Shown here in pieces: positions 8,201 through 30,995 of a DNA stretch of 64,000 nt. The first letter of the stretch is position 1; the number at the start of each line of letters is the position of its first letter. The DNA lies in assembly GCA_964291315.2 (NCBI GenBank), contig OZ219750.1:576001-640000 (forward strand). The letters are read 5' to 3'. A model generated the notes under the pieces. It was not told where the DNA came from. It did not search any database and saw only the letters and a list, made by a program, of their open reading frames with translations. The position numbers and the translations under genes were made by a program. The DNA comes from Candidatus Poribacteria bacterium (GTDB taxonomy: Bacteria > Poribacteria > WGA-4E > WGA-3G).

Positions 8201-11185
8201 ACAGATCCAAGAATCACTTCTTTCCGAGTGAAGATTGGGGACGAAGTATTTACAACCAGCGAAGGCACCGTCATTACCTCGGAAGAATTTGAGAGGCTTG
8301 AAGACACGCCTGACGTTAGTGACGATCTCCTTTATCTGGCAGCTAGAGCTGTCGCAGAGGGGGGAGCCACAGAATCTCCGATCTATCGGGAAGACTATCC
8401 ACCGTATCTAATGAAATGGACGGTTACGGTAGATACGACGCGTCTTGACGACACTATCACCGCGGATAGCTCCGCAGCTCGCGATGCCTCCAAGGACGAA
8501 AATAAGCATGTTGTGACTGCATCCACAATGACAGATAGTGGCGAAATGCCGGCACCTGAGAATGTCAAGAGTCACTTGTCGGTTGATAATGTTGACGATG
8601 TTGGGCCAGTGGGTCCCACAAACATTACCGCTGTCACCAATGTTGCTGATGGGGTTGATTCTCAACTTGTTGAAGCAGATGAGGACGGAAGTTATATGGT
8701 CGGTGGGATTGTTGATGAGGCGGTTCCATCTCCGATGGATATGCTTACTATTGAACCGACGGCCGATGCTAAAACCTACGCATCTGTGAAATTAATCCAA
8801 ACCGATGCTGATGGGAACGAAACTGTGACAGATAGTGAAGCCGGCGATTTGAACGTTACAGTTGACGTTGGGATGCTTGAAAATGGAACATATATGTTCC
8901 ATGCTCTCGCTGTTGACGAATTTGGTAATGTGCAAACCGATGAGTCACCGAAAACTGTTGTACATGTGATGAACTTCCGCCTCTCGGATATCAGTGATTT
9001 AATGATCACAGCGGTTGATGGGCTGGAGGTAGCGGAAACGCCTGTTGAACCTATAGCGCTTCGGGATTCGCTCACAGCTGGTTTCGTTGTTGCTAACGGC
9101 TCATTAGCTACAGAACATCTGAGTGCTAGCATTAACGGGAATGCGGTCGCTAGTGAAAGTACAGAAGATCCAGAGATGACCTTCTCACTTTCGATGATGG
9201 ACCTTTCAGCAATGTCGGACGGTATGTATACGCTAGAAGGTATGGTCAACCGATGGAATGGTTCAGTGTCATTCCCGTTAGCTATGATTAACCTTGACAG
9301 TACGGGTCCGATGGTTAAGATTGAAACGCCTTTGGAAGATCATACGATTGACAGTTTACCGACTGTTTATGCGACCTATGAAGATGGTACGGGCGTTGGT
9401 GTTGACAGCACAGGCAAAGAGGGCTTGGCTTGGGCAACAACGGAACTTGCCGATGGACCAACCGTTATGTTGGTGCGTATACTGCCTGAGCAAGGTGACC
9501 AAGATATTATGATTGACCAGATGGCTATTGAAGCTGATAAATCCACCTTGGTTTACACCCGTGATGAACAACTTCCCGGTGGTGCCTACCGCGCAACTGT
9601 CAAAGTTGCTGATGTTCTCGGTAACATCGGGGAAGCCTCTGTTGAATTCGCTATCAGCGGCACTTTTCCAGCCGTTGCGATTCACTCACCAACTTCGGGG
9701 CAGACCGTCAAGGACACCACCCCACTGATTAGCGGTGAGATCTCGGGGGCAGGCGATCTTGAAATAACCATCTTTACTGTTGACGGTGTGGATGTTACAC
9801 CTGAGGTAGACGGGAACCGATTCTCTTATACGCCTGTTGCAGCGTTAAGCGGTGGGGCACACACTGTTGTCGTTGAAGTCACCGATGGTGACGGTCGAAC
9901 AGCACAGACATCCACCTCTTTCACAGTGGCGACAGACACAACTCCACCTGTTATCTCTGAAGTCGCTCCATCTGGAGTCATCAAAGGTGATAGCTGGATA
10001 ACAATTTCAGCGGTTGTTTCTGATGAACAATCCAGTATTGTAAGTGTGAAGTTTGCTATTGACGATAAACCGTCCCGCTCCGTTCCGCTTGCTCAAATTG
10101 CGGAAGGACGCGCTCAAATTGCGGAAAGCTTCACAGCAGGTGCACATACCGTAACTGTCATTGCAATTAGTGCGGGTGGCACGACACAACATTCGTGGAC
10201 TTTCACGTTAGAAGTCGATAATGTCGCACCTACGATTACCTCAATCACTCCGACAGGAACTATTCGTGCTGGACTCCCGGTAATCTCCGCGAGTGCCAAC
10301 GATGAATCTGGGGTGGATAAGATGGGTATTGTTGTGTTTGACAGCGACGGTGAAGAGGTAAAAGGCGATACCGAAGATGATGGTGAGGATGATGTTGAAG
10401 GTATCACACGCTTGGACTTCATTCCTGAGGAACCCCTTGATGAGGGAACTTACACGATTGAGGTTCGCGCGACTGATACAATCGGTAACTCTGCTACGGC
10501 AAAAAGTACTTTTTCAATTGACTTCGATACTGCTGCTCCGGTTATCACAATGTCATCGCCGCAAAATGAGGCACGTCTGACCGAACGGCGCCCTCAGATT
10601 TCGATAACCTACGCTGATGCTGAATCAGGGATAGATGTCGATTCTATCCGCTTTGTTCTAGATGACAAGCTGATTAATGTCAAACCGAATCAGAAGACGG
10701 CATCACAGTTGATATACACTCCAGATATCGATCTCGCTTTCGGGAAACATAGCGTCAAACTTGAGGTTTCTGACATGGCACATAAAGAGGGCAATGTCTC
10801 TGAAAAGAGCAGCGGCGCTCGTGAAGCAAACATGGCAGTCCATGAGTTTACATTCTATGTTGAGAGTGAGGAAGGTCCGGCGTTGGCCTCGCGTCCGATA
10901 AATGCACCTAACCCGTTCAGAGAGAACACGCGTATTTCCTTCACGTTGACTCGACAATCTACGGTGAGTATTGTCATTTACGATATGACGCTGCGACCTG
11001 TCCGAGTCTTGGTTGATAACGAAGTATGGGATGCAGGTGAGTACATTGGTACGAACGCAATCGGTTGGGACGGAACTAGTTCTTCTGGCGAGGATTTGGC
11101 TCGAGGTGTCTACTTCTGTCAAATTATGGTAGCGGACGGTTTTGAACCGGAGTATGTACTTCTCAAACTTGCACTGACACGCTAA
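5219..11185 (+). CDS. Giant secreted/surface protein (~1988 aa) with bacterial Ig-like repeats and a C-terminal FlgD-Ig/T9SS-like sorting domain
   Basis: AGGAGG RBS, Sec signal MKKRTLV...AVFG, repeated DTTAP/DTTPP Ig boundaries, C-terminal NAPNPF..TRISFTL..IYD..WDG..G..LARGVYF. Confidence 0.8.
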   Translation: MKKRTLVCFLIFTLCVFYSSIPNAVFGQEVSLAQQVFDKHSETLQREDIQAVLPDVLEGLKAPNIQALLTPQTIAIVVATPDLLTQFVPDIDQQFVALLKEDVDLQGLLSDPQVQELLQDPAAIDELAGLLGVGAEPPVVEPPVVEPPVVEPPVVEPPVVEPPVVEPPVTVPTIDPFEPIMPTNDFILGKSRLGGLSLNAASGKGLIEEIIRASGLPFEASTLVDAILDLVPQGIFPKKQMRQILMSNRLSIFEQEAKQLDFENFGNAIMPNFADFAYLEASSKHVTRDGLQVYMRVPAKVGGVTFTLSGGKTVPGTEVTMAEFQSDTISYTFQLDETLAATNLPAWPSLGAQLFSSVTLRYSNTGPQGDYIAVDMQPTTGKNGVVWESEIGIPPKGSTYYYFEVMLTEPVSFTTLDREAIAAMDPTTVSLADILSATKEYTIEGWAMPDPKNLQMVNRGIVEALFTPDLTRVLDDVLTSPNAANIILKVNAGQQLKINEFLSVATQKQRNRITSIISRNANRITTKFETEFDPMLASVFTVPRVNMQTESLWIAQIEDIADGSYYLAAVVHDADGNPLDQVQEMVTFDTTAPEAQIQIMDGGNTAGYTNAEGVYVATAPNAGPAALNIMGMSKGNDVGAGRGYLFYQEIALDADGIPQSTWMPLTVESTILTSRIWSSVLERFPQELASFVKMNFPELVGGLDDTAIAGLLGSLTPESLLALLSPDLIQQFANPFLKSLEPFIGRFQLSDSQSQAIVDALGATVDIVDHLLPVTFEPSEHVTMPIQGEHMSLMIGDYGIRAMGIDMLFNLGVYAEPARLRIVVPETDAASVTAVNIGDQNGDGDANDPYENGMIFADTTDDVMLTVTVDNRTVHPASISVQYMDANGAWQMIGEARELAENEEVSMYQISWNVTDFDALVAASDTVMVRAVATNALQLTSTSEPFAIKLDADVYPAPFDVIALALDAESITKTNPDSGGPQGTVTISGYTPQRTDPRITSFRVKIGDEVFTTSEGTVITSEEFERLEDTPDVSDDLLYLAARAVAEGGATESPIYREDYPPYLMKWTVTVDTTRLDDTITADSSAARDASKDENKHVVTASTMTDSGEMPAPENVKSHLSVDNVDDVGPVGPTNITAVTNVADGVDSQLVEADEDGSYMVGGIVDEAVPSPMDMLTIEPTADAKTYASVKLIQTDADGNETVTDSEAGDLNVTVDVGMLENGTYMFHALAVDEFGNVQTDESPKTVVHVMNFRLSDISDLMITAVDGLEVAETPVEPIALRDSLTAGFVVANGSLATEHLSASINGNAVASESTEDPEMTFSLSMMDLSAMSDGMYTLEGMVNRWNGSVSFPLAMINLDSTGPMVKIETPLEDHTIDSLPTVYATYEDGTGVGVDSTGKEGLAWATTELADGPTVMLVRILPEQGDQDIMIDQMAIEADKSTLVYTRDEQLPGGAYRATVKVADVLGNIGEASVEFAISGTFPAVAIHSPTSGQTVKDTTPLISGEISGAGDLEITIFTVDGVDVTPEVDGNRFSYTPVAALSGGAHTVVVEVTDGDGRTAQTSTSFTVATDTTPPVISEVAPSGVIKGDSWITISAVVSDEQSSIVSVKFAIDDKPSRSVPLAQIAEGRAQIAESFTAGAHTVTVIAISAGGTTQHSWTFTLEVDNVAPTITSITPTGTIRAGLPVISASANDESGVDKMGIVVFDSDGEEVKGDTEDDGEDDVEGITRLDFIPEEPLDEGTYTIEVRATDTIGNSATAKSTFSIDFDTAAPVITMSSPQNEARLTERRPQISITYADAESGIDVDSIRFVLDDKLINVKPNQKTASQLIYTPDIDLAFGKHSVKLEVSDMAHKEGNVSEKSSGAREANMAVHEFTFYVESEEGPALASRPINAPNPFRENTRISFTLTRQSTVSIVIYDMTLRPVRVLVDNEVWDAGEYIGTNAIGWDGTSSSGEDLARGVYFCQIMVADGFEPEYVLLKLALTR
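5624..5728 (+). repeat. Coding tandem repeat, 7 x 15 nt, (EPPVV)6-EPPVT
   Basis: Read directly; units differ mainly at synonymous positions. Confidence 0.97.
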
Positions 11186-11203
11186 GTAAATGGCAGTCTG
11201 CAT

Positions 11204-11235
11204 GTCGGGAATTGGACGCTTGTCTAGTTCCCGAT
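11204..11235 (+). promoter_or_regulatory. Intercistronic stem-loop without U-tract
   Basis: GTCGGGAATTGGAC-gcttt-GTCTAGTTCCCGAT. Confidence 0.65.
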
Positions 11236-11257
11236 GTGGACACTGAAGGAGGATATA

Positions 11258-12256
11258 ATGTTAATGACAGAACAAATCGCTAAATGGGTTTCCAAAAAGG
11301 GCCCGAAATTGTTATGCGGTTTACTACCCCTTTTCTTTTTTATCCTAGCGGTGTCACCGGCCAGTTTTGCGGGAGTGGATGCCATGCCACATCTGCGGCT
11401 TGGTGCCGGTGCACGCTCGATCGGCTTAGCTGGTGCATTCACAGCAATTGCTGATGATGCTACTGCAACCGTTTGGAACCCAGCAGGACTCGGCTCCGCA
11501 GCGGATTTAAGCCTCAACCTTTCAACACAGCAGCTTGATTTTGATAGGAACCATAACTTCATTGCATTGACGAAAGCTCTTGGTTCATCGGGGGCCATCG
11601 GCCTCGCTGTCACAAACGCGGGTGTCAGTGGCATCCAGCAGTATGACGAAAATGAACGCTACGGTGGAGAATTCGACTACAGTGCGAATGCTTACTCTCT
11701 CTCTTATGGCATCGGGTTCGGAAATTTCGGTATCGGTCTTACAGCCCGCCTGTTAACAGACAGCTTCGGGGGATCCGATGTTGAAAATCAAAGTGGTTTT
11801 GGGGGGCTAGATGTCGGAATCATGGGACATGCCCTGCATATCGATGTCGGTGAAGAAAATGTGCCAACCTTCCACTATGGGCTTGTTGCGAAGTACCTCG
11901 GGGCCTCCCTTGGTGATGACACTGTCCCCATGGTTATTAATCTCGGCTTAGCCTACAACCTCTATATGGGTAATGTTGTCACATTTGCCGCAGATATTGA
12001 GCAAGAACTCGTAAATCTTGACCAAAGTGCCACGAGTTTGAAGCTCGGTGCTGAATATACTATTCTCACTTACAAATCTACTGCTTTATCCATCCGTGGC
12101 GGGGTCAGAGCATCGCGCGATACCCAAAACCTCTTCGGTGGTTTTGGTGTCAACATCGGTGGGCTGCAGATTGATTATGCTATCCAAGATGGTATGGCGA
12201 GTGAAATCAACGGGGTCGGATCAACTCACTTTGCTTCTCTCTCTTATAGGTATTAA
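11258..12256 (+). CDS. PorV/PorQ-like (FadL-type) outer-membrane beta-barrel protein
   Basis: Signal peptide, LRLGAGARSIGLAGAFTAIADDATATVWNPAGL signature, amphipathic strands, C-terminal SLSYRY barrel signal. Confidence 0.8.
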   Translation: MLMTEQIAKWVSKKGPKLLCGLLPLFFFILAVSPASFAGVDAMPHLRLGAGARSIGLAGAFTAIADDATATVWNPAGLGSAADLSLNLSTQQLDFDRNHNFIALTKALGSSGAIGLAVTNAGVSGIQQYDENERYGGEFDYSANAYSLSYGIGFGNFGIGLTARLLTDSFGGSDVENQSGFGGLDVGIMGHALHIDVGEENVPTFHYGLVAKYLGASLGDDTVPMVINLGLAYNLYMGNVVTFAADIEQELVNLDQSATSLKLGAEYTILTYKSTALSIRGGVRASRDTQNLFGGFGVNIGGLQIDYAIQDGMASEINGVGSTHFASLSYRY

Positions 12257-12268
12257 AGGAGGAAATTA

Positions 12269-13129
12269 ATGAAAATGATAAGAGGCACGCTGAAGTTAGC
12301 ACTGATTCTGTACATCTGCGCAGCACTCAGTGGTGTTTATGTGTTATCCGCGTCGGCGAAAATCACGCCGCATGATGGCGATGACAATACTATGCTCATC
12401 ACAATTGTAAAGGGAGACACACTTTGGGATCTCTGCCAACAACATCTCAAGGATCCACTTCGCTGGCGTGAGCTGAGTAAGTATAACGACTTCACCAACC
12501 CGCACCTCATCTATCCGGGCGAACATCTGCGAATTCCTGTCGCTATGGTGAAAGAACTCGTTGAAGTGGCTGAGGAAGATCTCGCTAGTTCCCAGGAAGA
12601 GCTTGAGAGATTAAAAGTGGAATTAGCTGAATCGGAAGCAACGCGGGATAAACTAGAATCAGAAATTAGTGGGCTCAACGAGAGTATGGGACAACTCAAG
12701 GCGCAGCTTAAGGCTCTTGAGGACAGCCTGAAATCACAAGAGCAGCTCATCGATGCAGTTGGTCAATCGGGCGAGGTAATCGCCTTGAGCTTCAAAGAAG
12801 TCCTTACAGCAAATAAAGATGCTATCCTTGATGCGATTTCTGGTCTTGACGAACGTCTTAAAGCATTGGGGAAAATGCATGAAAAACGGAAAATGGAAGC
12901 AGAAAAGACACTCGCACGTGTCGAGACTATCCAGACGCATGTGAAAACGCTTCTAACCTCCGTTGAAAACAACCAAAAAGCGATCAGGGAAGTCAAGATG
13001 ATCCTTGAAAATGCCAAGGGTGTGCACGAGGAACTTTCCTCATCCAAACGTGGGTGGGTGTTCCTGACAACTGTCGCAGCTGGCATTGGGTTGTTTGCTA
13101 TCAATGCTATCGGTGGGCGAGGCGAGTAA
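12269..13129 (+). CDS. LysM-domain coiled-coil protein with C-terminal membrane anchor
   Basis: Signal peptide, IVKGDTLWDL...NPHLIYPGEHLRIP LysM, long heptad region, hydrophobic C-terminal WVFLTTVAAGIGLFAINAIG. Confidence 0.85.
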   Translation: MKMIRGTLKLALILYICAALSGVYVLSASAKITPHDGDDNTMLITIVKGDTLWDLCQQHLKDPLRWRELSKYNDFTNPHLIYPGEHLRIPVAMVKELVEVAEEDLASSQEELERLKVELAESEATRDKLESEISGLNESMGQLKAQLKALEDSLKSQEQLIDAVGQSGEVIALSFKEVLTANKDAILDAISGLDERLKALGKMHEKRKMEAEKTLARVETIQTHVKTLLTSVENNQKAIREVKMILENAKGVHEELSSSKRGWVFLTTVAAGIGLFAINAIGGRGE

Positions 13130-13148
13130 TCGAAACGCATCACCTTTT

Positions 13149-13187
13149 AGGCAGGGAAGGTGTTAAATCGCCTCCCTGCTTTTTTTA
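13149..13187 (+). terminator. Intrinsic terminator closing the three-gene operon
   Basis: GCAGGGAAGGTG...CGCCTCCCTGC followed by a T-run. Confidence 0.85.
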
Positions 13188-13216
13188 TAGCGTTTGCTAT
13201 TTTAAAGGCTCTGAAT

Positions 13217-13837
13217 ATGTCAGCAAATGTCTCTAAACATCCTCAACCTCCCTTTACTCAAGTAATGTCCCTCTCCGGTGATAGAGTTGGCAGTAAAGGA
13301 AGGTTCCGATTCGCTGGATTCGCGTGGATATCTGATGCAAAAGTCATCTTTGTCCAAGGCGATATGCAAAATTTGGAAACACCTCCGGAGTGGCGGCAGC
13401 TGTTACGTCTGATTAACCTCGCGCATCGTCTCAGAAGATCTATCGTTTTGTGGAATCTTCCTATTATCCATATCGCTACAAAACAGCGTAGAATGTCGTT
13501 AGCCAAGGCACAGGTGATTCAGAGGGTCGAATTGGCGCTACTAAAACTACCACACCCTATTATCGCAGTTTTTGACGAAACTTGCGATGGTGTTTATCCG
13601 CTTTCCGAAGCCTGCTGGAACGATGGTATTGTACTTGTGTCGTCCTTAGGTGCTCAACTTTCTGAATCTGGTAAGGTCAAAATGGCTCGACATCCAGCAG
13701 AAATTGCACCCGCGATTGTCTATCTTCTCTGTCAAGCAGCAGCTATTCCAGCTGCGGAATTAATTGAAGATCGAAGCGCGTCTCTGCATATGTTTGTTAA
13801 AAGCAGAACAGCGTTTTCGTCAGAATTGCTATCCTAG
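13217..13837 (+). CDS. Divergent AccA-like (carboxyltransferase alpha fold) protein lacking catalytic motifs
   Basis: LSGDR, PEWRQLLRLINLAHRL, LPHPIIAV, AELIEDR parallel AccA segments; DTPGA and GGSGG absent. Confidence 0.55.
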   Translation: MSANVSKHPQPPFTQVMSLSGDRVGSKGRFRFAGFAWISDAKVIFVQGDMQNLETPPEWRQLLRLINLAHRLRRSIVLWNLPIIHIATKQRRMSLAKAQVIQRVELALLKLPHPIIAVFDETCDGVYPLSEACWNDGIVLVSSLGAQLSESGKVKMARHPAEIAPAIVYLLCQAAAIPAAELIEDRSASLHMFVKSRTAFSSELLS

Positions 13838-13850
13838 TGAGGCACTTTTG

Positions 13851-14474
13851 ATGTTCGAAGCAAAATTAAAACCACACTTTGACGTTATTCTGTCTGTTGT
13901 CGCAAATAAGATGGTCGCACTCGGAATTACAGCAAATATGGTGACGCTTTTTGGATTCGTCGTCAATCTCATTGCCACTTTTTACGTAGCAACCGGACAT
14001 CTCGCTATAGGTGGGATTTTAATTTTATTTGGAGGCAGTTTTGATATGATAGATGGCGCGGTTGCTCGTGCCCAAATAAATCTCCGAGCCTCAGGTGCAC
14101 TCTTGGATTCCGTCATTGATCGTTATTCCGAAGGTTTTCTCTTTCTTAGTGTCCTTCTCTATTTTTATAGTTTGGGAAGTTTGATTGGAATAATTCTTGC
14201 CTTTGGTGCCTGGTTTGGTTCAATCCTGGTAAGTTATGTGAGGGCGAGATCTGAGGGACTTCAGATTACTTGTAAGGTTGGGCTTATGCAACGTCCAGAG
14301 CGTATCGTCTTACTTGGTGCTGGCACACTGCTCCAAGGACTGTTGTGGCACAAATTTCCAATCATTCAAACCAACGCTCTGATTCTACTCTGTGTGCTTG
14401 CGGTACTTACACTCACAACCCATATTACTGCACTTCATCGACTCGTTTTCTCGTATCAAGAATTGAACCGCTAA
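13851..14474 (+). CDS. CDP-alcohol phosphatidyltransferase (PIP synthase/PgsA-like)
   Basis: TANMVT, DMIDGAVAR...GALLDSVIDR, SYVRARSEG, RPER. Confidence 0.9.
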   Translation: MFEAKLKPHFDVILSVVANKMVALGITANMVTLFGFVVNLIATFYVATGHLAIGGILILFGGSFDMIDGAVARAQINLRASGALLDSVIDRYSEGFLFLSVLLYFYSLGSLIGIILAFGAWFGSILVSYVRARSEGLQITCKVGLMQRPERIVLLGAGTLLQGLLWHKFPIIQTNALILLCVLAVLTLTTHITALHRLVFSYQELNR

Positions 14475-15241
14475 TCTCCTCCTCCGCTCTGCCAAAGGAG
14501 GCGAGTCGCAAAAGCGATTACAGCGGCAATGAGCATCACTTTTATCCATTTTTCCCCTTTTGAGACCGCCCAATGACTTCCGAGCCATGCCCCGCTTGCA
14601 TTACCAACTGCCAGTGTCGGCCCTAAATACCAATTGATTTTGCCTTGTGAAATAAAAATACCAAGGGCAATTACGGTATAAAAGAAGATAACGAAAACTT
14701 TAATGGCATTCGTCCGGACTAAATCCATACCGGTGAAAAGGCGCAAAGCAGTTATAATAAGCAAACCAACACCAGCTTGGATGAATCCACCATAAATTCC
14801 GATAAAGAAAAAAACGATCATTACGATAATTTTAGAATTCTTGCTTCTGTTTTCAATCCTGTCTTTCAAGCGCTCCGTTGGATTAAGTAGTGTTAGGATC
14901 AGCATAACAAGCATCACGACAGCGAGGATTAGGTTGAATACCGAGTCCTTGATATCGATGGCTATTATAGCACCTATTATAGCACCGATAACCGCTGGTA
15001 TGGCGAGGAAAATGCTGTAGTTAAAATCAGATATCCCCTTACGGCGGAATCCCATGATGGCACTGAAGTTTTGAAAAAAAATAGCGATCCTATTCGTTCC
15101 GTTTGCGACCGCAGCCTCGAGCCCTAGGAAGATTAGCATAGGTAGGGCTAACAATGAACCGCCGAAGGCAACCGTGTTTAAGAAACCTGCAGCAATGCCC
15201 GTGCCAAAGAGTAAGAGGGCGTGAAGAAAGTTGAATTCCAC
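14471..15241 (-). CDS. TSUP (TauE/SafE) family transporter
   Basis: AGFLNTVAFGGSLLALP, ANGTNR, GIYGGFIQAGVG; multiple TM helices. Confidence 0.88.
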   Translation of the reverse strand: MEFNFLHALLLFGTGIAAGFLNTVAFGGSLLALPMLIFLGLEAAVANGTNRIAIFFQNFSAIMGFRRKGISDFNYSIFLAIPAVIGAIIGAIIAIDIKDSVFNLILAVVMLVMLILTLLNPTERLKDRIENRSKNSKIIVMIVFFFIGIYGGFIQAGVGLLIITALRLFTGMDLVRTNAIKVFVIFFYTVIALGIFISQGKINWYLGPTLAVGNASGAWLGSHWAVSKGEKWIKVMLIAAVIAFATRLLWQSGGGD

Positions 15242-15384
15242 TTTAAACTTTTATTATCTCCGTTTTTTACTAGCTTCCCACTTCCGGCCTGTAATGACTG
15301 TCGGCTTTCAGTTTTTGAATATCAGGGGCGCTGCAATCGCAAACGTTTTGTCTGCCACAAACTGATCTTGTTGACTACTGATAG

Positions 15385-15639
15385 CTATTTTGTTGACCTC
15401 CATTTCGCAATTCCAATCAAGATAAGGGCGACAAGGTTTCCTACAATGATCGCGCTTCCGAGCCCTACCATACCTAAGAAACCACAAATCTGAATTAGTC
15501 CGTTTCCAAATGGGCATTGCCAGTTATTTACGAAGATCGCACGGGCAGAAATTAGCACGCCGATTATAAAGCCGATACCGGCAGCTACAGCGGAAATCAT
15601 CTGTATTTTTTTTAAACCAGGAAGCTGTATTTCAAACAT
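15385..15639 (-). CDS. Small two-TM membrane protein
   Basis: ATG at 15639 just after the upstream gene; two hydrophobic helices. Confidence 0.6.
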   Translation of the reverse strand: MFEIQLPGLKKIQMISAVAAGIGFIIGVLISARAIFVNNWQCPFGNGLIQICGFLGMVGLGSAIIVGNLVALILIGIAKWRSTK

Positions 15640-15656
15640 AGAGGTTCCTTGCTTGT

Positions 15657-16676
15657 CTATGCTGTGCCGAGGTACCGATCTCGGCCTTGCACTAGAGCTT
15701 CTATTTTCCTGTCCACTACAGAGCGTTGGAGCATCCAAAAGCCGCAGTCCGGATGCACCCAACCAATCCGTCCTCCTCCCAACTTCTGTTCTGCTTTTTC
15801 TATGCTGACTGCTACATCATCAGGTGTCTCAATTGGATTAACTTTTACGTCAATCACCCCAATACCAAGAACGATGTCTGACGAGACTGCTTTGAGTGCT
15901 TCTAAGTCTGCCTCGGGACGGTGTTTGATCTCTAAAACAAGGTGGTTACATCGAAGCATGTTTAAGAAGTCTATGAGAGCAGCCCAGTTCCCTTTCTGGA
16001 TGACCTGTCCTCCGTAGTTGCCGAAGCAAAAATGAACTGCCTTTTCCCCGTTAAACGCGTCTAAGACAATATTAATCGCCTCAGCGGCGCGAGGTCCGTC
16101 TTCTGGGTTCCCCGGTATATTTGCTTCGTCTATTTGAAGGCACACACAGTCCAGCTCGCGCACTTGTGCAGCTAATGCTTGTGCCAAGTCCGTTAGCAGT
16201 GCATCAAAGTTGCCGTAATGCTTATCTAGTAGTGTCCGAGCAAGCATGTAGGGACTTGTTACTGTAAATTTGATATCTTTACCGGCAACACTTACAGCTC
16301 GCTCACAGTCAGAAACAAGGTTTAATGTACCTTCGCCTAACGCACCTTCAACGATGCCTGCGGGCTTTGCACGAAACGACATCGTTTGCATCTGTCTGAA
16401 TTCATACCATTCTTGTCGTCCGACTTCTGTTCTAACACCAGAAAGTGGTCGAATGAAATAGTCGATCATTCCGTTGGTGTTTGGATGGTTGGCATCAAAC
16501 CGATAGAGTTCGCCGTCGGTCGGTAGTTCAATGCCGTGTTGTCGTTGCGTATCTACAACAACTCGGGTGGCATCAAGAAGGGTTTGCTCCGTTGGTATTG
16601 ATGAGAGCCACATTGGCACCGGATAGGAGCCGACAGTTGTTGTCAAAATTTCTGGTTTTTTGGATATATTTTTCAC
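15657..16676 (-). CDS. Cobalamin-independent methionine synthase II family protein
   Basis: TTTVGSYP, TDGE, QIDE, HFCFGN, HPDCG zinc ligands. Confidence 0.88.
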   Translation of the reverse strand: MKNISKKPEILTTTVGSYPVPMWLSSIPTEQTLLDATRVVVDTQRQHGIELPTDGELYRFDANHPNTNGMIDYFIRPLSGVRTEVGRQEWYEFRQMQTMSFRAKPAGIVEGALGEGTLNLVSDCERAVSVAGKDIKFTVTSPYMLARTLLDKHYGNFDALLTDLAQALAAQVRELDCVCLQIDEANIPGNPEDGPRAAEAINIVLDAFNGEKAVHFCFGNYGGQVIQKGNWAALIDFLNMLRCNHLVLEIKHRPEADLEALKAVSSDIVLGIGVIDVKVNPIETPDDVAVSIEKAEQKLGGGRIGWVHPDCGFWMLQRSVVDRKIEALVQGRDRYLGTA

Positions 16677-16684
16677 GGATTAAC

Positions 16685-17695
16685 TTAGTTGTCCACCAGC
16701 TCAAAAGATTCGAGTTCAAAAACAGTTTCTACTGTGACATCGTCTCGCGTCTGTGCCTGTGTAAATCTAATGATACCGACATCTGGCGCGACCCATTTTT
16801 TCACGACGGTAATATCAAGCGGGAAATTTTGGTTTTCTATATCAAATCCCCATCTAAAAGACTCTTGAATTTGAAAGACATGATCAAAAGTTCCGGCGGG
16901 GACAGTCGCTGTCTCTTCTGAAAGCACTTCAAATTCGTCAATACCTTCACCAATCGGAAAGAGTTCCGGGACTAATTGTGCCTGAAATTTGACTTGCCAT
17001 TTATCACCTGGAATGAGTGGAAATTGATAAAGTGGAAGGAACGGGACGAATAGGATTGTATCACTCGTTCCTGATGTGGTATTCTGTGCGTGTTGTAAGA
17101 TCTGTGAGATCTCACCGTTTTCATCAACCTTCGTACCGAGGTAAGAGTAGTTTACAACGTTTTCTAATCCTTCAGCCTTACTAGATTTCTGAAGGACGAA
17201 ACTGTCAATAGTGTTTCCGCTCGCGCGTTGAATCTGGATGGTGTCCACGATTTCAAACGTAATTTCATTACCACTTGCGTCTTTATAGTGCCAAACATTT
17301 CCGACTGCCAAGGGATAATAGTCTCCAGGGCGTGTTCTCCACACTTGGATATCAAGTGTACTCTTTGTAGTGTTTTCACCATCTGTGACTGTAACTGCAA
17401 TCTGGTATTTTCGTTCGGTTTGTGGTGCCTGCCAGAGGGCACCAGAGGCGTTTTCCGTTAATTCTCCGTCTGTGGTAGACCAAGTATATGATAAAGTATC
17501 ATTCTCAAGATCAGCGGCTTTCAGATGGATTTGCACTTCTGTTCCAGGTGCAACGACATCTGCTTCAGATTCAAATGTTAAAATGCTCGGTGCGCGGTTG
17601 CTGTCACTCGGGGTCCCTTCACCGCAGCCCGCGACGACACTAATGAGCAAAACCCAAAGGATTTTCCAAGCGTTGGTTGCTTTTTTGCTCAGCAT
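16685..17695 (-). CDS. Lipoprotein with Ig/PKD-like domain
   Basis: Lipobox VAGC; NRAP...DLENDTLSYTW; YYPLAVGNVWHY, TVPAGTF. Confidence 0.7.
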   Translation of the reverse strand: MLSKKATNAWKILWVLLISVVAGCGEGTPSDSNRAPSILTFESEADVVAPGTEVQIHLKAADLENDTLSYTWSTTDGELTENASGALWQAPQTERKYQIAVTVTDGENTTKSTLDIQVWRTRPGDYYPLAVGNVWHYKDASGNEITFEIVDTIQIQRASGNTIDSFVLQKSSKAEGLENVVNYSYLGTKVDENGEISQILQHAQNTTSGTSDTILFVPFLPLYQFPLIPGDKWQVKFQAQLVPELFPIGEGIDEFEVLSEETATVPAGTFDHVFQIQESFRWGFDIENQNFPLDITVVKKWVAPDVGIIRFTQAQTRDDVTVETVFELESFELVDN

Positions 17696-17796
17696 TGTAT
17701 TTCACCCCATATATGCGCCTTTGCCACACAATACCCATAAGCTCCGGTGCTAGGTTCGCTGGGAAGTATCTTGGTCAGGCAAGATACTCGCTTTTC

Positions 17797-18540
17797 TCAT
17801 GAGCGCAAAGGTTTTCCACGTAAGACTTCTCTGCATTGGGTTTCACCGTTTCCTGTTATATTGTAAGCAAAAGTGTTCATCAATCGATCGTTTTCTGAGT
17901 TGTTTGGGGCAGAACCGTGGATAATGAGGGCATTAAAAAACACACCATCCCCTGGTTCCATTTCCACAGCAACGGCATCTTCACGTTCTTGGTAGTGCCC
18001 GGGTAAAAATACCCCAAATGTTTGCTGTTTCTGTTCATGCTCTTGTAGCCCCCAATTATGGCTTCCAGGCACGAACTGTATACACCCGTTCTCAAGATTC
18101 GCTTTGCTTATGGCTAATTGACAGTTGATCATCACCGGTTTGTTATTATCATTTTTCCAGTACGCGTAATCCTGATGCCATGGAATAGCGGTACCATCGC
18201 CGCCTGCTTTTGGCAGCAATTTGCTGTGATAGAGTGAAATGTTTCCGCCCATTAATGCTTCTAATATATTCAAAACTTCATTAGATCGGAGCAGACGATT
18301 GAGTGTTCGACTCACTAGTTCACTATGCATTAACTGCTTGATACGCGGTGGGTGATTCTCTGAGTCGTTGTAGACTTCCCAAGAAATTCCAACCCCCTCT
18401 GCAGGGTGTTCAGCCATACGATTGTGTATATCTTCAATCTCGACCCGGATTCGCGAGAGGTCTTCTGAAGAAACAAGTCTTTTTTTTAAGAAATAACCGT
18501 TTGTTTCATAGAATTTCAATTCTTGATGCGTAAGTCCCAT
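17797..18540 (-). CDS. Phytanoyl-CoA dioxygenase (PhyH) family protein
   Basis: WHQD, ENGCIQFVPGSH, HGSAPN..R. Confidence 0.9.
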   Translation of the reverse strand: MGLTHQELKFYETNGYFLKKRLVSSEDLSRIRVEIEDIHNRMAEHPAEGVGISWEVYNDSENHPPRIKQLMHSELVSRTLNRLLRSNEVLNILEALMGGNISLYHSKLLPKAGGDGTAIPWHQDYAYWKNDNNKPVMINCQLAISKANLENGCIQFVPGSHNWGLQEHEQKQQTFGVFLPGHYQEREDAVAVEMEPGDGVFFNALIIHGSAPNNSENDRLMNTFAYNITGNGETQCREVLRGKPLRS

Positions 18541-27263: not shown

Positions 27264-27451
27264 TGTAACTCCAATTTTTTATTAATGATCGTACTCCAAG
27301 CAGCGATTTAAGTCAAGATATATCTCGGAATTATCCAGGGCCATTCAATTCCGATGCGGACACATTCCACAAGTTTAGGAGATAAAATTTAAAAATTTGA
27401 TAAGTATTTATAGATAAACTGTAATTTCAACAGCAGTAAAAATTTAAAAAC

Positions 27452-27480
27452 TTGACGAATGTTTACGGATGAAGTACAAT
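27452..27480 (+). promoter_or_regulatory. Sigma70-type promoter upstream of the peptide/ABC locus
   Basis: TTGACG-17 nt-TACAAT. Confidence 0.6.
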
Positions 27481-27657
27481 TTCCACAGGAATCTGAAAAA
27501 GAGATAAAAAATTTGACATTTTATATTTCGTTGATGAGCTAAATATTTATCAAGCTCGCGTTATATAGAATAGAGATGGATTGCCAAGGCTTCAAAACAC
27601 CTTTCAGATTTTGCCTTCCATACAGCACAGCAATCCGCGAAAACAGAGAAGTTTAAA

Positions 27658-27822
27658 ATGTTGAAAGCGTACTCCAAGAAAGTTCAAGCCAAGAAGGCAT
27701 ACGCCCCACCTGAATTTTTCCCATTGGGTTGTGCCACGTTTCTCGCCCACGGTTCTTGTGATGTTGGGTGTAACTATGAAAAAAGTGGGAATCAGAAAAC
27801 AATCTTTAGTTCCAATCGGTAA
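27658..27822 (+). CDS. Putative RiPP (lasso-like, RRE-dependent) precursor peptide, 54 aa, absent from the ORF track
   Basis: MLKAYSKKVQAKKAYAPPEFFPLGCATFLAHGSCDVGCNYEKSGNQKTIFSSNR; KKxYxxP...LG leader; 19 nt upstream of an ABC exporter. Confidence 0.6.
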   Translation: MLKAYSKKVQAKKAYAPPEFFPLGCATFLAHGSCDVGCNYEKSGNQKTIFSSNR

Positions 27823-27841
27823 TGTGTAGGGGGACAAAAAT

Positions 27842-29617
27842 TTGAACGCGTCCAAAAAGAAACTGATTTTGGGGAGTGGCAGCATAGCGATCCGCTTGTT
27901 GGGTTATCTCAAACCCTATTGGGGTATCGCCCTTTTATGTGTGCTCCTCCAGATCGTTTACCGGGCTACCTACTTGGTCAACCCATGGATAGAAGGGCAG
28001 TTGCTGGACCGGGTCTTTGGAGCGAAAGATGCCGATTTTCTACCTGTCCTTGTGAGTTTGTGGATGGGTATCGCCCTTGCGACCTATCTCACGAATCTGG
28101 TTTTGGCGTATCTTCTGAGAAACGTCACTTGTCAAACCCGCCGAGATATGCAACTGCAGGTTTACCAACATTTGCGGTTCCTCCCGTGCCGTTTCTACGA
28201 TAATCACACAACGGGGCAGATCATGGCTAACATCAGTTCCGATACAGAGTCGGCTGCGGGAGGGATTTTGTCAAGTGGCTGGATGCTCCTCTCGGGGATT
28301 GAATTTGTCATTACTCTGACGTTTGTGTTCGCGGTGAATCCATGGTTGGGGCTTTTTAGTATTCCGTTTGCCTTTGCCGTTGTTGGGCTCCCCTTTCTAT
28401 TTCGAAGGCCTGTGCAAAACGCTTCGAAGCAGGTCTTGCAGGAGAAAGAGAGCATTTCGTCAAGGCTTCAAGAAGGGATTGCGGGCTCGAGAGAGATAAA
28501 AGCCCTCGGTCATGAGCTGCGAGACATGGGTCGCATTCGGCGTTCAATAGACACCCTCATTCGTGCTGAACTCTATCAAACCTTAATCGGGGGCCTGACG
28601 ACCCTTGGCCCCCTTGCTTCTTGGTTGGGCCATCCGCTTTTCTTTCTCATCGGTGGGAAAATGGTGCTGGCCGGACACATCAGCGTCGGTTTTTTGTGGA
28701 TGGCAAACCGTTATTTACATCTGGTCACCCTGCCGCTACATCGGGTCGCCCAGGATGAATATCCAAAGCTTCTCCGAACCGGGGAGGGGGCAAAACGGGT
28801 GTTCGCTTTCCTCGAAAATCGAGCCGAACCCAACGATAGTATTGAGGCTGCTGACTTGCAAGGAAGTGTCCGGTTTGAAGGTGTCCATTTCAACTACAAT
28901 GGAACTACAGAAGTCCTTCAGAACGTCGGTTTTGAGGTGCAGCCCGGTCAAACCGCGGCACTCGTGGGCCCCAGCGGTGCAGGGAAAAGCACGATTCTCA
29001 ACCTGCTGCCGCGTTTCTACGAACCCACGCAAGGACACATCTTGGTTGATGAACACGATATCACGACACTTAAATTGAGAACCTTGAGATCGCAGATCGG
29101 CACGGTGTTTCAAGATCCTTATCTCTTTTCAGGTTCGATTGAAGAAAATATCCGAATGGGTGCTCGACACCCGGAAAACGTGAAAAGGGAGGACATCATA
29201 GCCGCTGCCACCGCTGCCACCGCCCACGGCTTTATCACGCAGCTCAAAGAGGGCTACGCCACAGAGATAGGCGAGCGGGGCATCAAACTCTCCGGGGGTG
29301 AGCGGCAACGGATTGCCATCGCTCGTTCCCTGATTCGGAATCCAAAGATTCTCCTTCTCGATGAAGCCACTTCCGCACTCGACTCGGAGACAGAGCGGGG
29401 TGTCACGGAAGCGTTAGAACGACTGATGAAGGGCAGGACCTCGTTTGTAATTGCACACCGATTGTCTACTGTGCTGAGCGCGGATGTGATTCTTGCCGTG
29501 GAAAATGGGAAAATTGTGGAACAAGGCACACATCAGGAGTTGATAGCCCGCGGCGGGCTCTATGCCCGGTTGTATCGCTTACAATTTGCGACCCCCGGCG
29601 ATCCAAACGATCAATAA
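27842..29617 (+). CDS. ABC exporter, fused permease + ATPase, no peptidase domain
   Basis: TM domain then GPSGAGKST, LSGGERQR, LLLDEATSALD. Confidence 0.93.
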   Translation: MNASKKKLILGSGSIAIRLLGYLKPYWGIALLCVLLQIVYRATYLVNPWIEGQLLDRVFGAKDADFLPVLVSLWMGIALATYLTNLVLAYLLRNVTCQTRRDMQLQVYQHLRFLPCRFYDNHTTGQIMANISSDTESAAGGILSSGWMLLSGIEFVITLTFVFAVNPWLGLFSIPFAFAVVGLPFLFRRPVQNASKQVLQEKESISSRLQEGIAGSREIKALGHELRDMGRIRRSIDTLIRAELYQTLIGGLTTLGPLASWLGHPLFFLIGGKMVLAGHISVGFLWMANRYLHLVTLPLHRVAQDEYPKLLRTGEGAKRVFAFLENRAEPNDSIEAADLQGSVRFEGVHFNYNGTTEVLQNVGFEVQPGQTAALVGPSGAGKSTILNLLPRFYEPTQGHILVDEHDITTLKLRTLRSQIGTVFQDPYLFSGSIEENIRMGARHPENVKREDIIAAATAATAHGFITQLKEGYATEIGERGIKLSGGERQRIAIARSLIRNPKILLLDEATSALDSETERGVTEALERLMKGRTSFVIAHRLSTVLSADVILAVENGKIVEQGTHQELIARGGLYARLYRLQFATPGDPNDQ

Positions 29618-29693
29618 CTGGTTCATCCACTAGTTCTTCGTTCTAGGATTCTCAAGAAAACGAAAAACTCTCTTCACCTTTTGGAGACATCCG

Positions 29694-30995
29694 ATGCATT
29701 TCACCGAAGCTTTCTTCATGAGCTGCACCGCAATCCTGGCAAATAAGATGCGTTCATTGCTGACGACGCTTGGCATTCTCATCGGGGTTGCCTCGGTGCT
29801 GGCAATGATAGCGATCGGTGATGGTGCGAAGGAAATTGTGCGACAAGACGCACAGAAATTGGGCGGTGCTAATCAGTTTATAATGTTCCGTTCGGGATAT
29901 GAATGGAAAGGGAATAAATGGGTGAAAGTCCGTCATAACGAATACCTCGAATATGGCGATGTCTTGGCGATTGCAGCGGAATGTCCATCGGTGAGTGCTG
30001 TCACCCCGAGAATTTGGGACTCGGGCGGTGTGCTAATTCAAGCCGCAGGTGGCACTGAAACCCGCGCAGGATATAATGGCGTAGATGCTACCTATCAAAC
30101 TGTCATGGATTGGGATCTCCAAGAAGGACGTTTTATCACCGCTGAAGATGTGGAGAACGCAACGAAAGTCTGTGTCCTCGGGGATGAAGTCTCGACGGCT
30201 CTCTTTGGAGAGAACTCCGCTTTGGGACAGGAAATCAAAATCGTAAGAGATGTCGGCCACTACGATCGATATGGTCGAAAAGCGGGGCGGCGTGCCGCAG
30301 AACGTTTCACGGTTGTCGGGACCTTTGTGCCGAGAGGCAGGACTCTTCGGTTCGGATCGAGTTTCGACACGCTTGTCTTCCTCCCGATATCTACCGTGCA
30401 AAAACGCTTCACAGGTAATGATCGGATTCAGCGCGTCTTAGTCTTCGTGCATAGGGTTGAGGATATGCCAAAGGCGATTGAGGAAGTAAAAGCGGTTATC
30501 CGCAAACGACACAGAAACCAAGATAGCTTCGTCCATATCTTTGAGATGCGAAAAGGTATAGCACAGCTAGAAAAAATAAGCAAAGTGATCAAGATTGCCC
30601 TCGGCAGCATCGCCGGTTTTTCGCTGCTTGTGGGTGGTATTGGTATTATGAATATGATGTTAGTTGCTGTAAACGAACGCACGCGCGAAATCGGGCTTCG
30701 GAAGGCAGTTGGTGCCAAACGCCGGGACATTCTGCTGCAGTTTCTCATAGAAGCAATGATGATGTGTGGTGTAGGAGGCGTGCTGGGTATTGGGTTCGGG
30801 ATTTTCGCAGGTGAAGGCATGGCACACCTTGCTGTCAACATCGTCAAAATCGTCCTCGAATGGCCGGCGGTTCTCTCGACAGAATGGATATTGATTTCGG
30901 TCACCTTTTCTGCGGTCATCGGTATCTCGTTTGGGCTGTATCCTGCGATAAAAGCCGCATCGCTCTCCCCAATGGAGGCACTACGTGCGGATTAA
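29694..30995 (+). CDS. MacB/FtsX-family ABC permease
   Basis: NKMRSLLTTLGILIGV, GGIGIMNMMLVAVNERTREIGLRKAVGA. Confidence 0.92.
   Translation: MHFTEAFFMSCTAILANKMRSLLTTLGILIGVASVLAMIAIGDGAKEIVRQDAQKLGGANQFIMFRSGYEWKGNKWVKVRHNEYLEYGDVLAIAAECPSVSAVTPRIWDSGGVLIQAAGGTETRAGYNGVDATYQTVMDWDLQEGRFITAEDVENATKVCVLGDEVSTALFGENSALGQEIKIVRDVGHYDRYGRKAGRRAAERFTVVGTFVPRGRTLRFGSSFDTLVFLPISTVQKRFTGNDRIQRVLVFVHRVEDMPKAIEEVKAVIRKRHRNQDSFVHIFEMRKGIAQLEKISKVIKIALGSIAGFSLLVGGIGIMNMMLVAVNERTREIGLRKAVGAKRRDILLQFLIEAMMMCGVGGVLGIGFGIFAGEGMAHLAVNIVKIVLEWPAVLSTEWILISVTFSAVIGISFGLYPAIKAASLSPMEALRAD

What the first reader, a model, noticed from the sequence alone, without database searches (positions are those of the whole stretch)
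27658..27822. Hidden 54-aa RiPP precursor with a lasso-type leader and Cys-containing core
Seen: MLKAYSKKVQAKKAYAPPEFFPLGCATFLAH-GSCDVGCNYEKSGNQKTIFSSNR, downstream of a good promoter and 19 nt before an ABC exporter. Known: lasso leaders follow YxxP...LG...T-x then a G/S/C/A-starting core with D/E at position 7-9. Here the -2 position is Ala (GCC, one change from Thr ACC), the acidic residues fall at core positions 4 and 10, and there is a CxxxC pair. Inference: an atypical lasso peptide, another RRE-dependent RiPP class, or a decaying precursor.
Basis: partly seen in the sequence, partly recalled or inferred. Interest (0 to 1): 0.8.

Follow-up and report, generated by a model that had tools for sequence, protein, structure and literature searches.

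The report
Orphaned lasso-peptide precursor beside its exporter
The small gene is a genuine relative of lasso-peptide precursors found in sponge-symbiont Poribacteria, but this genome has lost the enzymes that would tie the knot, so the gene is most likely a slowly decaying leftover next to a still-useful export pump.

Summary
It belongs to a small family (21 sequences, 19 distinct cores), found here only in Candidatus Poribacteria genomes and unnamed metagenome proteins. The family leader fits the lasso motif exactly: Y(-17)xxP(-14)xL(-12), G(-8), T(-2), then Gly(+1).

In one relative of the same genus (G022) the homologue opens a complete lasso cluster: precursor, ABC exporter (D), PqqD/RRE (B1), two GT4 glycosyltransferases, Asn-synthase-like cyclase (C), B2 peptidase.

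In this genome only the precursor and D remain. D runs into a MacB-like permease after 76 nt, and no B1, C or B2 homologue was found in the 4.4-Mb, 95%-complete assembly.

The local precursor carries five changes in a 16-residue leader block that is almost invariant elsewhere. It is the only one of 21 sequences without Thr(-2). Its leader dN/dS is about 0.85, against 0.03-0.10 in relatives, while D stays at 0.13-0.18.

Close D orthologues occur in 23 of 112 genomes of the GTDB family searched (the same family as this genome; unnamed), precursors in 5, the full cluster in 1.

Verdict: an orphaned, decaying lasso precursor in an eroding cluster, with the exporter outliving it. It is a new member of a known kind, of moderate interest.

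The parts
27658..27822 (+). 54-aa precursor (A) gene, stop codon included. It is a member of the Poribacteria lasso-precursor family.
   Evidence: ORF and translation. Homologues.
27700..27753 (+). Leader recognition block, Y15(-17) to G32(+1): YAPPEFFPLGCATFLAHG. The family consensus is Y-x-K-P-E-L-Y-P-L-G-R-A-T-F-L-T-H-G. The local copy differs by K>P, L>F, Y>F, R>C and T>A.
   Evidence: Deviation table. Codons. NG86 counts for G000 vs G046 are 3 synonymous and 8 nonsynonymous differences. Motif positions follow PMC10368454 (passages read).
27751..27819 (+). Predicted core, G32 to R54: GSCDVGCNYEKSGNQKTIFSSNR. Acidic residues fall at core positions 4 and 10. The 'EK' pair is the family-conserved motif.
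27842..29617 (+). ABC exporter (D), 591 aa with fused TMD and NBD. It is the orthologue of the D gene in the intact G022 cluster, is itself intact, and is under purifying selection.
   Evidence: Pfam. 75% identity over 589 aligned residues to G022 D. dN/dS 0.13-0.18. Close orthologues (at least 69% identity) in 23 of 112 genomes of the same GTDB family.
29618..29693 (.). 76-nt junction between D and the next gene. In G022 this position holds B1, two glycosyltransferases, C and B2 (about 5.9 kb). In G046 it holds a broken B1.
   Evidence: No remnant was detected here.
29694..30995 (+). MacB-like permease (MacB_PCD + FtsX), 433 aa. It recurs next to D or to D remnants in relatives.
   Evidence: Pfam. 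Synteny. dN/dS 0.15 against G126.
27377..27486 (+). Two tandem 55-nt promoter-like repeats (73% identical) upstream of the precursor. The second carries TTGACG-17-TACAAT (27452-27480).
   Evidence: The repeats are not shared with G022, G126 or G046 in the alignment.

Best explanation
The ORF is the precursor (A) gene of a lasso-peptide gene cluster that has been partly deleted in this genome.

Inferred history: the ancestral cluster, preserved in relative G022, read A, D (ABC exporter), B1 (RRE), two GT4 glycosyltransferases, C (cyclase), B2 (leader peptidase). In this genome the stretch from B1 to B2 was lost, which fused the end of D to a MacB-like permease gene.

Without B1, B2 and C the 54-aa product cannot be cleaved or cyclised. 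The precursor is therefore drifting. It has lost Thr(-2) and Leu(-12), three further conserved leader residues and its strong ribosome-binding site, but it has not yet acquired a stop or a frameshift.

The exporter is kept intact by selection. I infer that it serves on its own, most plausibly by pumping out (conferring immunity to) lasso peptides made by neighbouring Poribacteria, as McjD does for microcin J25, or as a general efflux pump.

Shown: family membership, cluster context in G022, absence of maturation genes here, relaxed constraint on A, and purifying selection on D. Inferred: the direction of events (loss, not gain), that the peptide is non-functional, and the immunity role of D.
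For: 1. Family and motif.
- 21 sequences share Y-x-x-P-E-L-Y-P-L-G-R-A-T-F-L-T-H-G followed by a variable core.
- Tyr lies 17 residues before the invariant Gly, Pro 14 and Leu 12. These are the positions given for lasso leaders in PMC10368454.

2. Cluster context.
- In G022 the homologue is followed by an ABC exporter, PqqD, two Glycos_transf_1 proteins, an Asn_synthase protein (558 aa) and Transglut_core3.
- Its B2 passes NF033537 (42 bits against a cut-off of 33).
- Its cyclase aligns end to end with NF033561.
- 12 cyclase clusters of 64-100% identity exist in the protein database. Three sit on contigs of the same length as the contigs of family precursors.

3. Loss of the maturation genes here.
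- Pfam Asn_synthase, PqqD and Transglut_core3 searches of the genome find no lasso-type gene.
- G022's C and B2 find nothing in G000, and B1 finds nothing at E <= 0.01.
- Local tblastn gives only D an orthologue.
- D and MacB are 76 nt apart inside a 650-kb contig.

4. Remnants in relatives show loss rather than gain.
- G046 has A, D, then a B1 with stop codons.
- G126 and G011 have A, then a 32-residue D remnant.
- Further D loci carry B1 fragments (G044, G011) or a B2 fragment (G072).

5. Relaxed constraint on A.
- There are 5 deviations in the 16-residue block, against 0-1 in 18 of the other 20 sequences. Two divergent metagenome members also have 5.
- Thr(-2) is present in 20 of 21 sequences and absent only here.
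- Leader dN/dS is about 0.85 for G000 vs G046, against 0.03-0.10 among the other pairs.
- The RBS is AGAGAAG here, against AGGAG in G022 and G126.

6. D is maintained.
- dN/dS is 0.13-0.18.
- Orthologues of 69-86% identity occur in 22 other genomes of the same GTDB family.
- None of the 8 further D loci examined has an A gene.

7. McjD gives self-immunity by export (PMC5641919, abstract as listed).
Against: - The ORF is still intact after the loss, and so are the copies in G126, G011 and G046, which also lack the enzymes. The G126 and G011 leaders are still at consensus; G046 has one leader change and a rewritten N-terminus. That could mean selection for some enzyme-independent role.
- The dN/dS contrast rests on 18 codons (11 differences) and is noisy.
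- Two divergent family members (P0033, P0034) also show 5 leader deviations, so a deviation count alone does not prove decay.
- The assembly is 95.2% complete in 4 contigs, so a maturation locus in the missing part cannot be strictly excluded.
- Ile or Val at -2 is tolerated in some natural lasso systems (PMC10368454), so Ala(-2) need not be fatal by itself.
- No expression data were available.
- The immunity role of D is inference only. By sequence D is a generic ABCB-type half-transporter.
Confidence: 0.75

Rival explanations
1. The small ORF survives because it now works without maturation. It could be an upstream reading frame whose translation helps expression of the exporter 19 nt downstream (coupling or attenuation), or a linear peptide exported by D.
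For: - The frame is intact in four genomes that lack the enzymes: G000, G046, G126 and G011.
- It keeps the N-terminal MLKAY and the 19-nt spacing to D.
- In G000 and G046 it still directly precedes an intact D.
Against: - Eight further D loci have no such ORF, yet D is intact in all of them, so D does not need it.
- In G126 and G011 the ORF persists although the D behind it is deleted.
- The most conserved part of the family is the RRE-binding leader. That has no reason to be conserved for a coupling role, and it is exactly the part drifting in G000.
Confidence: 0.12
2. It is still a working lasso precursor. It would be matured by enzymes encoded in the unassembled 5% of the genome or supplied by another symbiont, giving an atypical lasso peptide with Ala(-2) and a ring closed at Glu10.
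For: - The frame is intact.
- Gly(+1), Tyr(-17), Pro(-14) and the family's 'EK' motif are kept.
- E10-only cores are common in the family: 7 of 19.
- Non-Thr residues at -2 exist in nature (PMC10368454).
Against: - The place where the enzymes sit in G022, and where a B1 remnant sits in G046, is a clean 76-nt junction here.
- No homologue was found elsewhere in the genome.
- Maturation is intracellular and ATP-dependent, so supply from another cell is implausible (established knowledge of lasso biosynthesis; PMC9266682 passages).
- It is the only family member lacking Thr(-2), and Leu(-12) is also changed.
Confidence: 0.07
3. The peptide is the substrate of a different RRE-dependent pathway that borrows a lasso-type leader, like the linear phosphorylated peptides of Bacillota. 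It would use the genome's other PqqD-family protein.
For: - A 155-aa PqqD-domain protein exists at G000:C1:192236-192700, next to two proteins with no family match and an ABC ATPase.
- Non-lasso pathways with lasso-like leaders are described (PMC13381572, abstract as listed) and were noted earlier in this scan.
Against: - That PqqD protein is present in 110 of 112 genomes of the same GTDB family at 67-94% identity, while the peptide is in 5. The two do not co-occur specifically.
- It lies about 410 kb away.
- Its 662-aa neighbour shows no similarity to the G022 cyclase (best E 1.4) and has no Pfam match; it looks like a multi-pass membrane protein by eye.
- The peptide's own homologues sit in a classical lasso cluster.
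Confidence: 0.03

Closest known systems
Lasso-peptide clusters with split B1/B2 and a YxxPxL leader (the fusilassin/fuscanodin and paeninodin type)
   Same: - The leader has Tyr(-17), Pro(-14), Leu(-12), Thr(-2) and Gly(+1) at family level.
- The intact relative has a PqqD-type RRE, a Transglut_core3 peptidase, an Asn-synthase-like cyclase and an ABC exporter (PMC10368454 and PMC6784204 passages).
   Different: - In this genome only A and D remain.
- The local leader has Ala(-2) and Phe(-12).
- The core has no Asp/Glu at positions 7-9.
- The intact relative adds two GT4 glycosyltransferases.
- The phylum is Poribacteria.
McjD, the microcin J25 exporter and self-immunity protein
   Same: Both are fused TMD-NBD ABC exporters encoded in a lasso cluster. 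Export as immunity is the model I apply to the retained D gene (PMC5641919, abstract as listed).
   Different: - No specific sequence tie was shown. The best PDB matches are generic ABCB/MsbA/Sav1866-type exporters.
- Here D is retained without producer genes in many genomes.
- An immunity function is untested.
Pseudomycoidin, a phosphorylated and glycosylated lasso peptide
   Same: It is a lasso peptide that carries sugars (PMC9266682 and PMC8498205 passages).
   Different: There the hexoses are added to a phosphoserine by a nucleotidyltransferase homologue (PsmN). The Poribacteria cluster instead encodes two GT4-family (Glycos_transf_1) enzymes and no kinase.
Linear peptides with lasso-like leaders (Bacillota family of PMC13381572)
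   Same: A lasso-type leader exists without a cyclase in the same genome.
   Different: Those are dedicated, conserved pathways with their own RRE and tailoring enzymes. Here no such partner tracks the peptide, and the family's intact form is a true lasso cluster. I saw only that paper's abstract in the search listings.

Membership tests
Lasso peptide precursor | YxxP in the leader, with Tyr at -17 and Pro at -14 relative to the core | tested here: met
   Y15 and P18 lie 17 and 14 residues before G32. Positions follow PMC10368454.
Lasso peptide precursor | Conserved Leu at -12 (YxxPxL) | tested here: not met
   Phe20 in the window copy, codon TTT against CTT. Leu is present in the other 20 of 21 family sequences.
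Lasso peptide precursor | Thr at the penultimate leader position (-2); rare natural Ile/Val exceptions exist | tested here: not met
   Ala30 (GCC). Thr is present in 20 of 21 family sequences. Thr(-2) is described as a critical recognition element in PMC10368454.
Lasso peptide precursor | Small residue (usually Gly) at core position 1 | tested here: met
   Gly32 is invariant in all 21 sequences.
Lasso peptide precursor | Asp or Glu at core position 7, 8 or 9 to close the macrolactam | tested here: not met
   The window core has D4 and E10 only. 12 of 19 distinct family cores have D/E at 7-9, and 7 have it only at 10. The 7-9 rule is taken from PMC9266682.
Lasso peptide precursor | Homology to precursors that sit in a cluster with B (RRE + peptidase) and C (cyclase) | tested here: met
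   The G022 homologue (55% identity, E 2.4e-9) heads the cluster A-D-B1-GT-GT-C-B2.
Functional lasso biosynthetic gene cluster (in this genome) | Cyclase (Asn-synthase homologue) and leader peptidase/RRE present | tested here: not met
   - No full-length Asn_synthase match. The 3 hits cover profile positions 12-112 only.
- No Transglut_core3 match above the cut-off.
- G022's C, B2 and B1 find no orthologue.
Lasso peptide (product) | Threaded lariat topology of the mature peptide | not testable with these tools
   This needs isolation and MS/NMR. No product is expected here.
Lasso-cluster D exporter | ABC exporter orthologous to, and syntenic with, the D gene of an intact cluster | tested here: met
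   75% identity over 589 aligned residues to G022 D. It lies directly behind A in G000, G022 and G046.

The most novel reading that the evidence does not exclude
Two bolder readings remain open.

1. This Poribacteria family makes glycosylated lasso peptides whose ring is closed at the invariant Glu of the 'EK' motif. That would give 9-residue rings in some members and 10-residue rings in others, a size so far reported only for an in vitro fusilassin analogue.

2. After the producers decay, the exporter, sometimes still dragging its precursor along, is kept across many sponge symbionts as an orphan immunity gene against the few remaining producers. On that reading the window shows an intermediate stage of a producer-to-cheater transition.
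Probability: 0.2. Interest if true: 0.65.

Novelty: new member of a known kind. Interest (0 to 1): 0.38.

Why it matters
For this window, the result explains an unannotated small gene and prevents a false 'new RiPP class' call. It is a lasso precursor stranded by deletion of its enzymes.

More broadly, it points to an uncharacterised lasso family in uncultured sponge symbionts:
- The cluster carries two glycosyltransferases.
- Its conserved acceptor Glu often sits at position 10.
- The genomes form a graded erosion series: full cluster in 1, precursor in 5, and close exporter orthologues in 23 of 112 genomes of the same GTDB family.

If the exporter acts as stand-alone immunity, that would bear on how antimicrobial-peptide production and resistance are shared out among co-resident symbionts.

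The intact G022 cluster, not this locus, is the one worth expressing.

Tried and rejected
- Pfam and NCBIfam give no family for the peptide. The only hits are two sub-threshold cytidine-deaminase matches, taken as chance.
- Two scans of JGI metagenome contigs with the family alignment returned only chance matches. The two 'confirmed' loci, L046 and L047, carry the nine-residue word inside unrelated ORFs.
- The genome-contig scan re-found only G046, G011 and G126.
- The 5' UTR hairpin (GGATTGC...GCAATCC, shared with G022) folds no better than shuffles: z = 0.54.
- The GT4 gene downstream of MacB in G126 is not a remnant of the cluster's transferases: 23% identity.
- The 662-aa neighbour of the genome's other PqqD protein is not a cyclase.
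- Earlier notes of this scan hold nothing on this place or this sequence.
Co-location of three pairs is inferred from equal contig lengths only.
- Complex prediction, structure prediction and the protein atlas were not used.

Literature searches:
- 'Poribacteria' + 'lasso peptide' gave 3 papers, none with both terms in the title. In the one I opened (PMC9426513), lasso clusters with glyco-, sulfo- and nucleotidyl-transferases are reported for sponge microbiomes but are not tied to Poribacteria in the passages shown.
- The search for natural 10-residue rings gave 11 papers holding at least 2 of 6 terms. I opened only PMC8498205, the one paper whose title and abstract are about the chemical diversity of lasso peptides; there a ten-residue ring appears only as an in vitro analogue. 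The one other hit with lasso peptides in its title, a preprint on engineered lasso peptides, and the remaining nine were judged from title and abstract start alone.

Full report
**Observation**

The window holds an ATG-started ORF at 27658-27822 on the + strand.
- A 19-nt gap separates its stop from the TTG start (27842) of a 591-aa ABC exporter with ABC_membrane and ABC_tran domains.
- Residue 30 is Ala (GCC).
- Counted from Gly32, the core has Asp4, Glu10 and a Cys3-x3-Cys7 pair.
- The 'good promoter' is only a consensus match: TTGACG-17-TACAAT at 27452-27480. The region holds 6 such sites against 4.4 +/- 2.0 in shuffles.

**It is a real gene family**
- tblastn over 41 related genomes found two clear homologues in the same genus: G022 at E 2.4e-9 and G011 at E 1.4e-7.
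- A profile search of all 176 genomes held for the phylum found the family in 5: G000, G022, G011 and G126 in one genus, and G046 in another genus of the same family.
- Record titles of three of these name them Candidatus Poribacteria MAGs.
- A search of 5.8 billion proteins gave 15 clusters of 55-61 aa.
- A filter-free profile search of 1.84 billion representatives gave 6 hits at E <= 0.001. Two were new, more divergent members.
- In all, this makes 21 sequences and 19 distinct cores.
- They share M-L-K-A-Y, a Lys-rich spacer, then Y-x-K-P-E-L-Y-P-L-G-R-A-T-F-L-T-H-G, then a variable 6-8 residues, a conserved E-K-D-S-N-G-Q-E-like stretch and an aromatic, Asn-rich tail.

**The leader is a lasso leader**

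PMC10368454 (passages read) places the YxxPxL motif of lasso leaders at positions -17 to -12, and a Thr at -2 that is a critical recognition element. PMC6784204 (passages) says YxxP and the Thr are needed for recognition by the RRE.

In this family Tyr, Pro and Leu lie exactly 17, 14 and 12 residues before the invariant Gly, and Thr lies 2 before it. The invariant Gly is therefore core position 1.

**The intact cluster**

In G022 the homologue is followed on the same strand by these genes:
- a 590-aa ABC exporter
- a 102-aa PqqD protein
- two Glycos_transf_1 proteins (541 and 594 aa)
- a 558-aa Asn_synthase protein
- a 145-aa Transglut_core3 protein

NCBIfam results:
- The Transglut_core3 protein passes the curated cut-off of 'lasso peptide biosynthesis B2 protein' (42 bits against 33).
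- The cyclase aligns over its whole length with the albusnodin-type macrolactam cyclase model (94 bits, below that model's cut-off of 300).
- The PqqD protein's best match is a lasso PqqD chaperone model (37 bits, below 80).

Twelve cyclase clusters of 64-100% identity exist in the protein database; the source name shown for the 100%-identical one is a Candidatus Poribacteria hypothetical protein, and the other eleven carry no name. Three lie on contigs of the same length as those of precursors P0015, P0008 and P0011. I take that as probable co-location, but I could not read the contigs.

**What is left in this genome**

The window's exporter is 75% identical to G022's D over 589 aligned residues. 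After it, however, comes a 76-nt gap and then a MacB-like permease (MacB_PCD + FtsX).

Searches of the 4.4-Mb, 4-contig, 95.2%-complete genome gave:
- Pfam Asn_synthase: only three short PP-loop-type hits, covering profile positions 12-112.
- Transglut_core3: nothing above the cut-off.
- PqqD: one clear protein, about 410 kb away.
- G022's cyclase and B2: no match. Its B1: none at E <= 0.01.
- Local tblastn with all six G022 proteins: an orthologue for D only.

**Loss, not gain**
- G046 has A, then D, then a B1 with two stop codons and a frame change, then a MacB gene with an internal deletion. Its D reads through in one frame over residues 5-586.
- G126 and G011 have A, then a remnant of D covering residues 10-41, then MacB.
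- D orthologues of at least 69% identity occur in 23 of 112 genomes of the same GTDB family, G000 included. A 24th genome matched only at 46% identity and I count it as a paralogue. Three orthologues carry one stop codon, and one covers only residues 3-443.
- I fetched 8 further D loci and compared them with the G022 cluster proteins and the window's A and MacB, dropping rows under 35% identity except those for A.
  - All 8 have D; G044 has two tandem copies.
  - None has A.
  - G044 has two B1 fragments and G011 one. G072 has a B2 fragment next to MacB.
  - MacB lies beside D in G044, G126, G092 and G072.
- A profile search of the 700 nt upstream of the 9 D copies found nothing (best E 0.27).
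- DNA similarity to the window starts at 27809-27881 in all 8 loci, behind the leader.
- The genomic surroundings differ from genome to genome. G126 has an IS605-type TnpB gene close by.

**Constraint**

In the 16-residue block K-P-E-L-Y-P-L-G-R-A-T-F-L-T-H-G the window copy differs at 5 positions (K>P, L>F, Y>F, R>C, T>A).
- 18 of the other 20 sequences differ at 0 or 1 position. The two divergent metagenome members differ at 5 but keep Thr(-2), Pro and Leu.
- Four of the five changes are single-base changes from the relatives' codons.
- Nei-Gojobori counts on the 18 leader codons give 3 synonymous and 8 nonsynonymous differences between G000 and G046, a dN/dS of about 0.85. Among G022, G126 and G046 the ratio is 0.03-0.10. 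The numbers are small.
- By contrast, D has dN/dS 0.13-0.18 in all three pairs, and MacB 0.15.
- The AGGAG upstream of the start in G022 and G126 is AGAGAAG here.

**Explanation**

The ORF is an orphaned lasso precursor in a partly deleted cluster. It cannot be matured here and is drifting. The exporter is kept by selection and, across the family, outlives A, B and C.

By analogy with McjD, which protects its producer by exporting microcin J25 (PMC5641919, abstract as listed), I infer that D is retained as stand-alone immunity or efflux. That step is inference: by sequence D is a generic ABCB/MsbA-type half-transporter.

**Rivals**
- A maturation-independent role as an upstream reading frame or a linear peptide is not excluded, because the frame is intact in four enzyme-less genomes. 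But D does well without it at 8 other loci, and in G126 and G011 the ORF outlived its D.
- Maturation by undetected enzymes is unlikely given the clean junction.
- A different RRE-dependent pathway is unlikely. The only other PqqD protein is a core gene in 110 of 112 genomes of the same GTDB family, and the peptide is in 5.

**A point beyond the finding**

The invariant Glu of 'EK' is at core position 9 or 10. 12 of 19 distinct cores have some Asp/Glu at 7-9, and 7, the window's among them, have one only at 10.

Reviews give 7-9 as the natural range (PMC9266682) and mention a ten-residue ring only as an in vitro fusilassin analogue (PMC8498205). The search turned up no natural case; I opened only PMC8498205 from it and judged the other ten hits, one of them a preprint on engineered lasso peptides, from their titles and abstract starts.

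GT4-type glycosyltransferases in a lasso cluster also differ from the one glycosylated lasso peptide described in those reviews (pseudomycoidin, via PsmN). A sponge-microbiome survey reports lasso clusters with group transferases but does not link them to Poribacteria in the passages I saw (PMC9426513).

**Verdict**

This is a new member of a known kind. The window locus itself is a relic; the family it reveals is worth a specialist's look.

Noticed in passing
L024 (G022:C42) 9947-17904: A complete lasso cluster in a Poribacteria MAG of the same genus: precursor, ABC exporter, PqqD, two GT4 glycosyltransferases with long extra regions (541 and 594 aa), cyclase and B2. The Asn/Ser-rich C-terminal tails of the family (NSNG, NNG, SNTN) are candidate sugar acceptors.
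   Followed up: partly
family cores (P0007, P0011, P0013, P0014, P0034, G046 = L021:1450-1632, window 27751-27819): Seven of 19 distinct cores have no Asp/Glu at positions 7-9, only the conserved Glu at position 10. This hints at a natural 10-residue macrolactam ring.
   Followed up: partly
window 27377-27486: Two tandem 55-nt promoter-like repeats (73% identical), plus a third TTGACA-containing stretch at about 27508. They are specific to this genome in the four-genome alignment. Their purpose is unknown.
   Followed up: partly
L018 (G000:C1:184000-201000) 7383-11902, minus strand: A gene set conserved across the GTDB family: a 662-aa polytopic membrane protein and a 346-aa protein, both without any Pfam or NCBIfam match, then a 155-aa PqqD-domain protein and a LolD/MacB-type ABC ATPase. 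The PqqD protein is present in 110 of 112 genomes of the same GTDB family. It is an RRE-like protein with no visible RiPP partner.
   Followed up: partly
L051 (G044:C1:416000-434000) 6839-12229, minus strand: MacB, then two tandem copies of the exporter (77% identical to G022 D), each followed by a B1 fragment. This suggests the cluster was once tandemly duplicated.
   Followed up: no
P0005 (metagenome protein on a 4.69-Mb contig): A precursor identical to the G126/G011 copy up to the 'EK' motif, then a different C-terminus. It looks like a frameshifted allele.
   Followed up: no
L022 (G126:C3) 7481-8695, minus strand: An IS605 OrfB/TnpB-type gene lies about 1.3 kb upstream of the orphan precursor in G126. 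It may be connected with the rearrangements at this locus.
   Followed up: no
G000:C1:645042-645272 and G000:C4:3248210-3248440: An identical weak tblastn hit appears near the end of contig C1 and also inside C4. This suggests a repeated or overlapping stretch between the two contigs.
   Followed up: no
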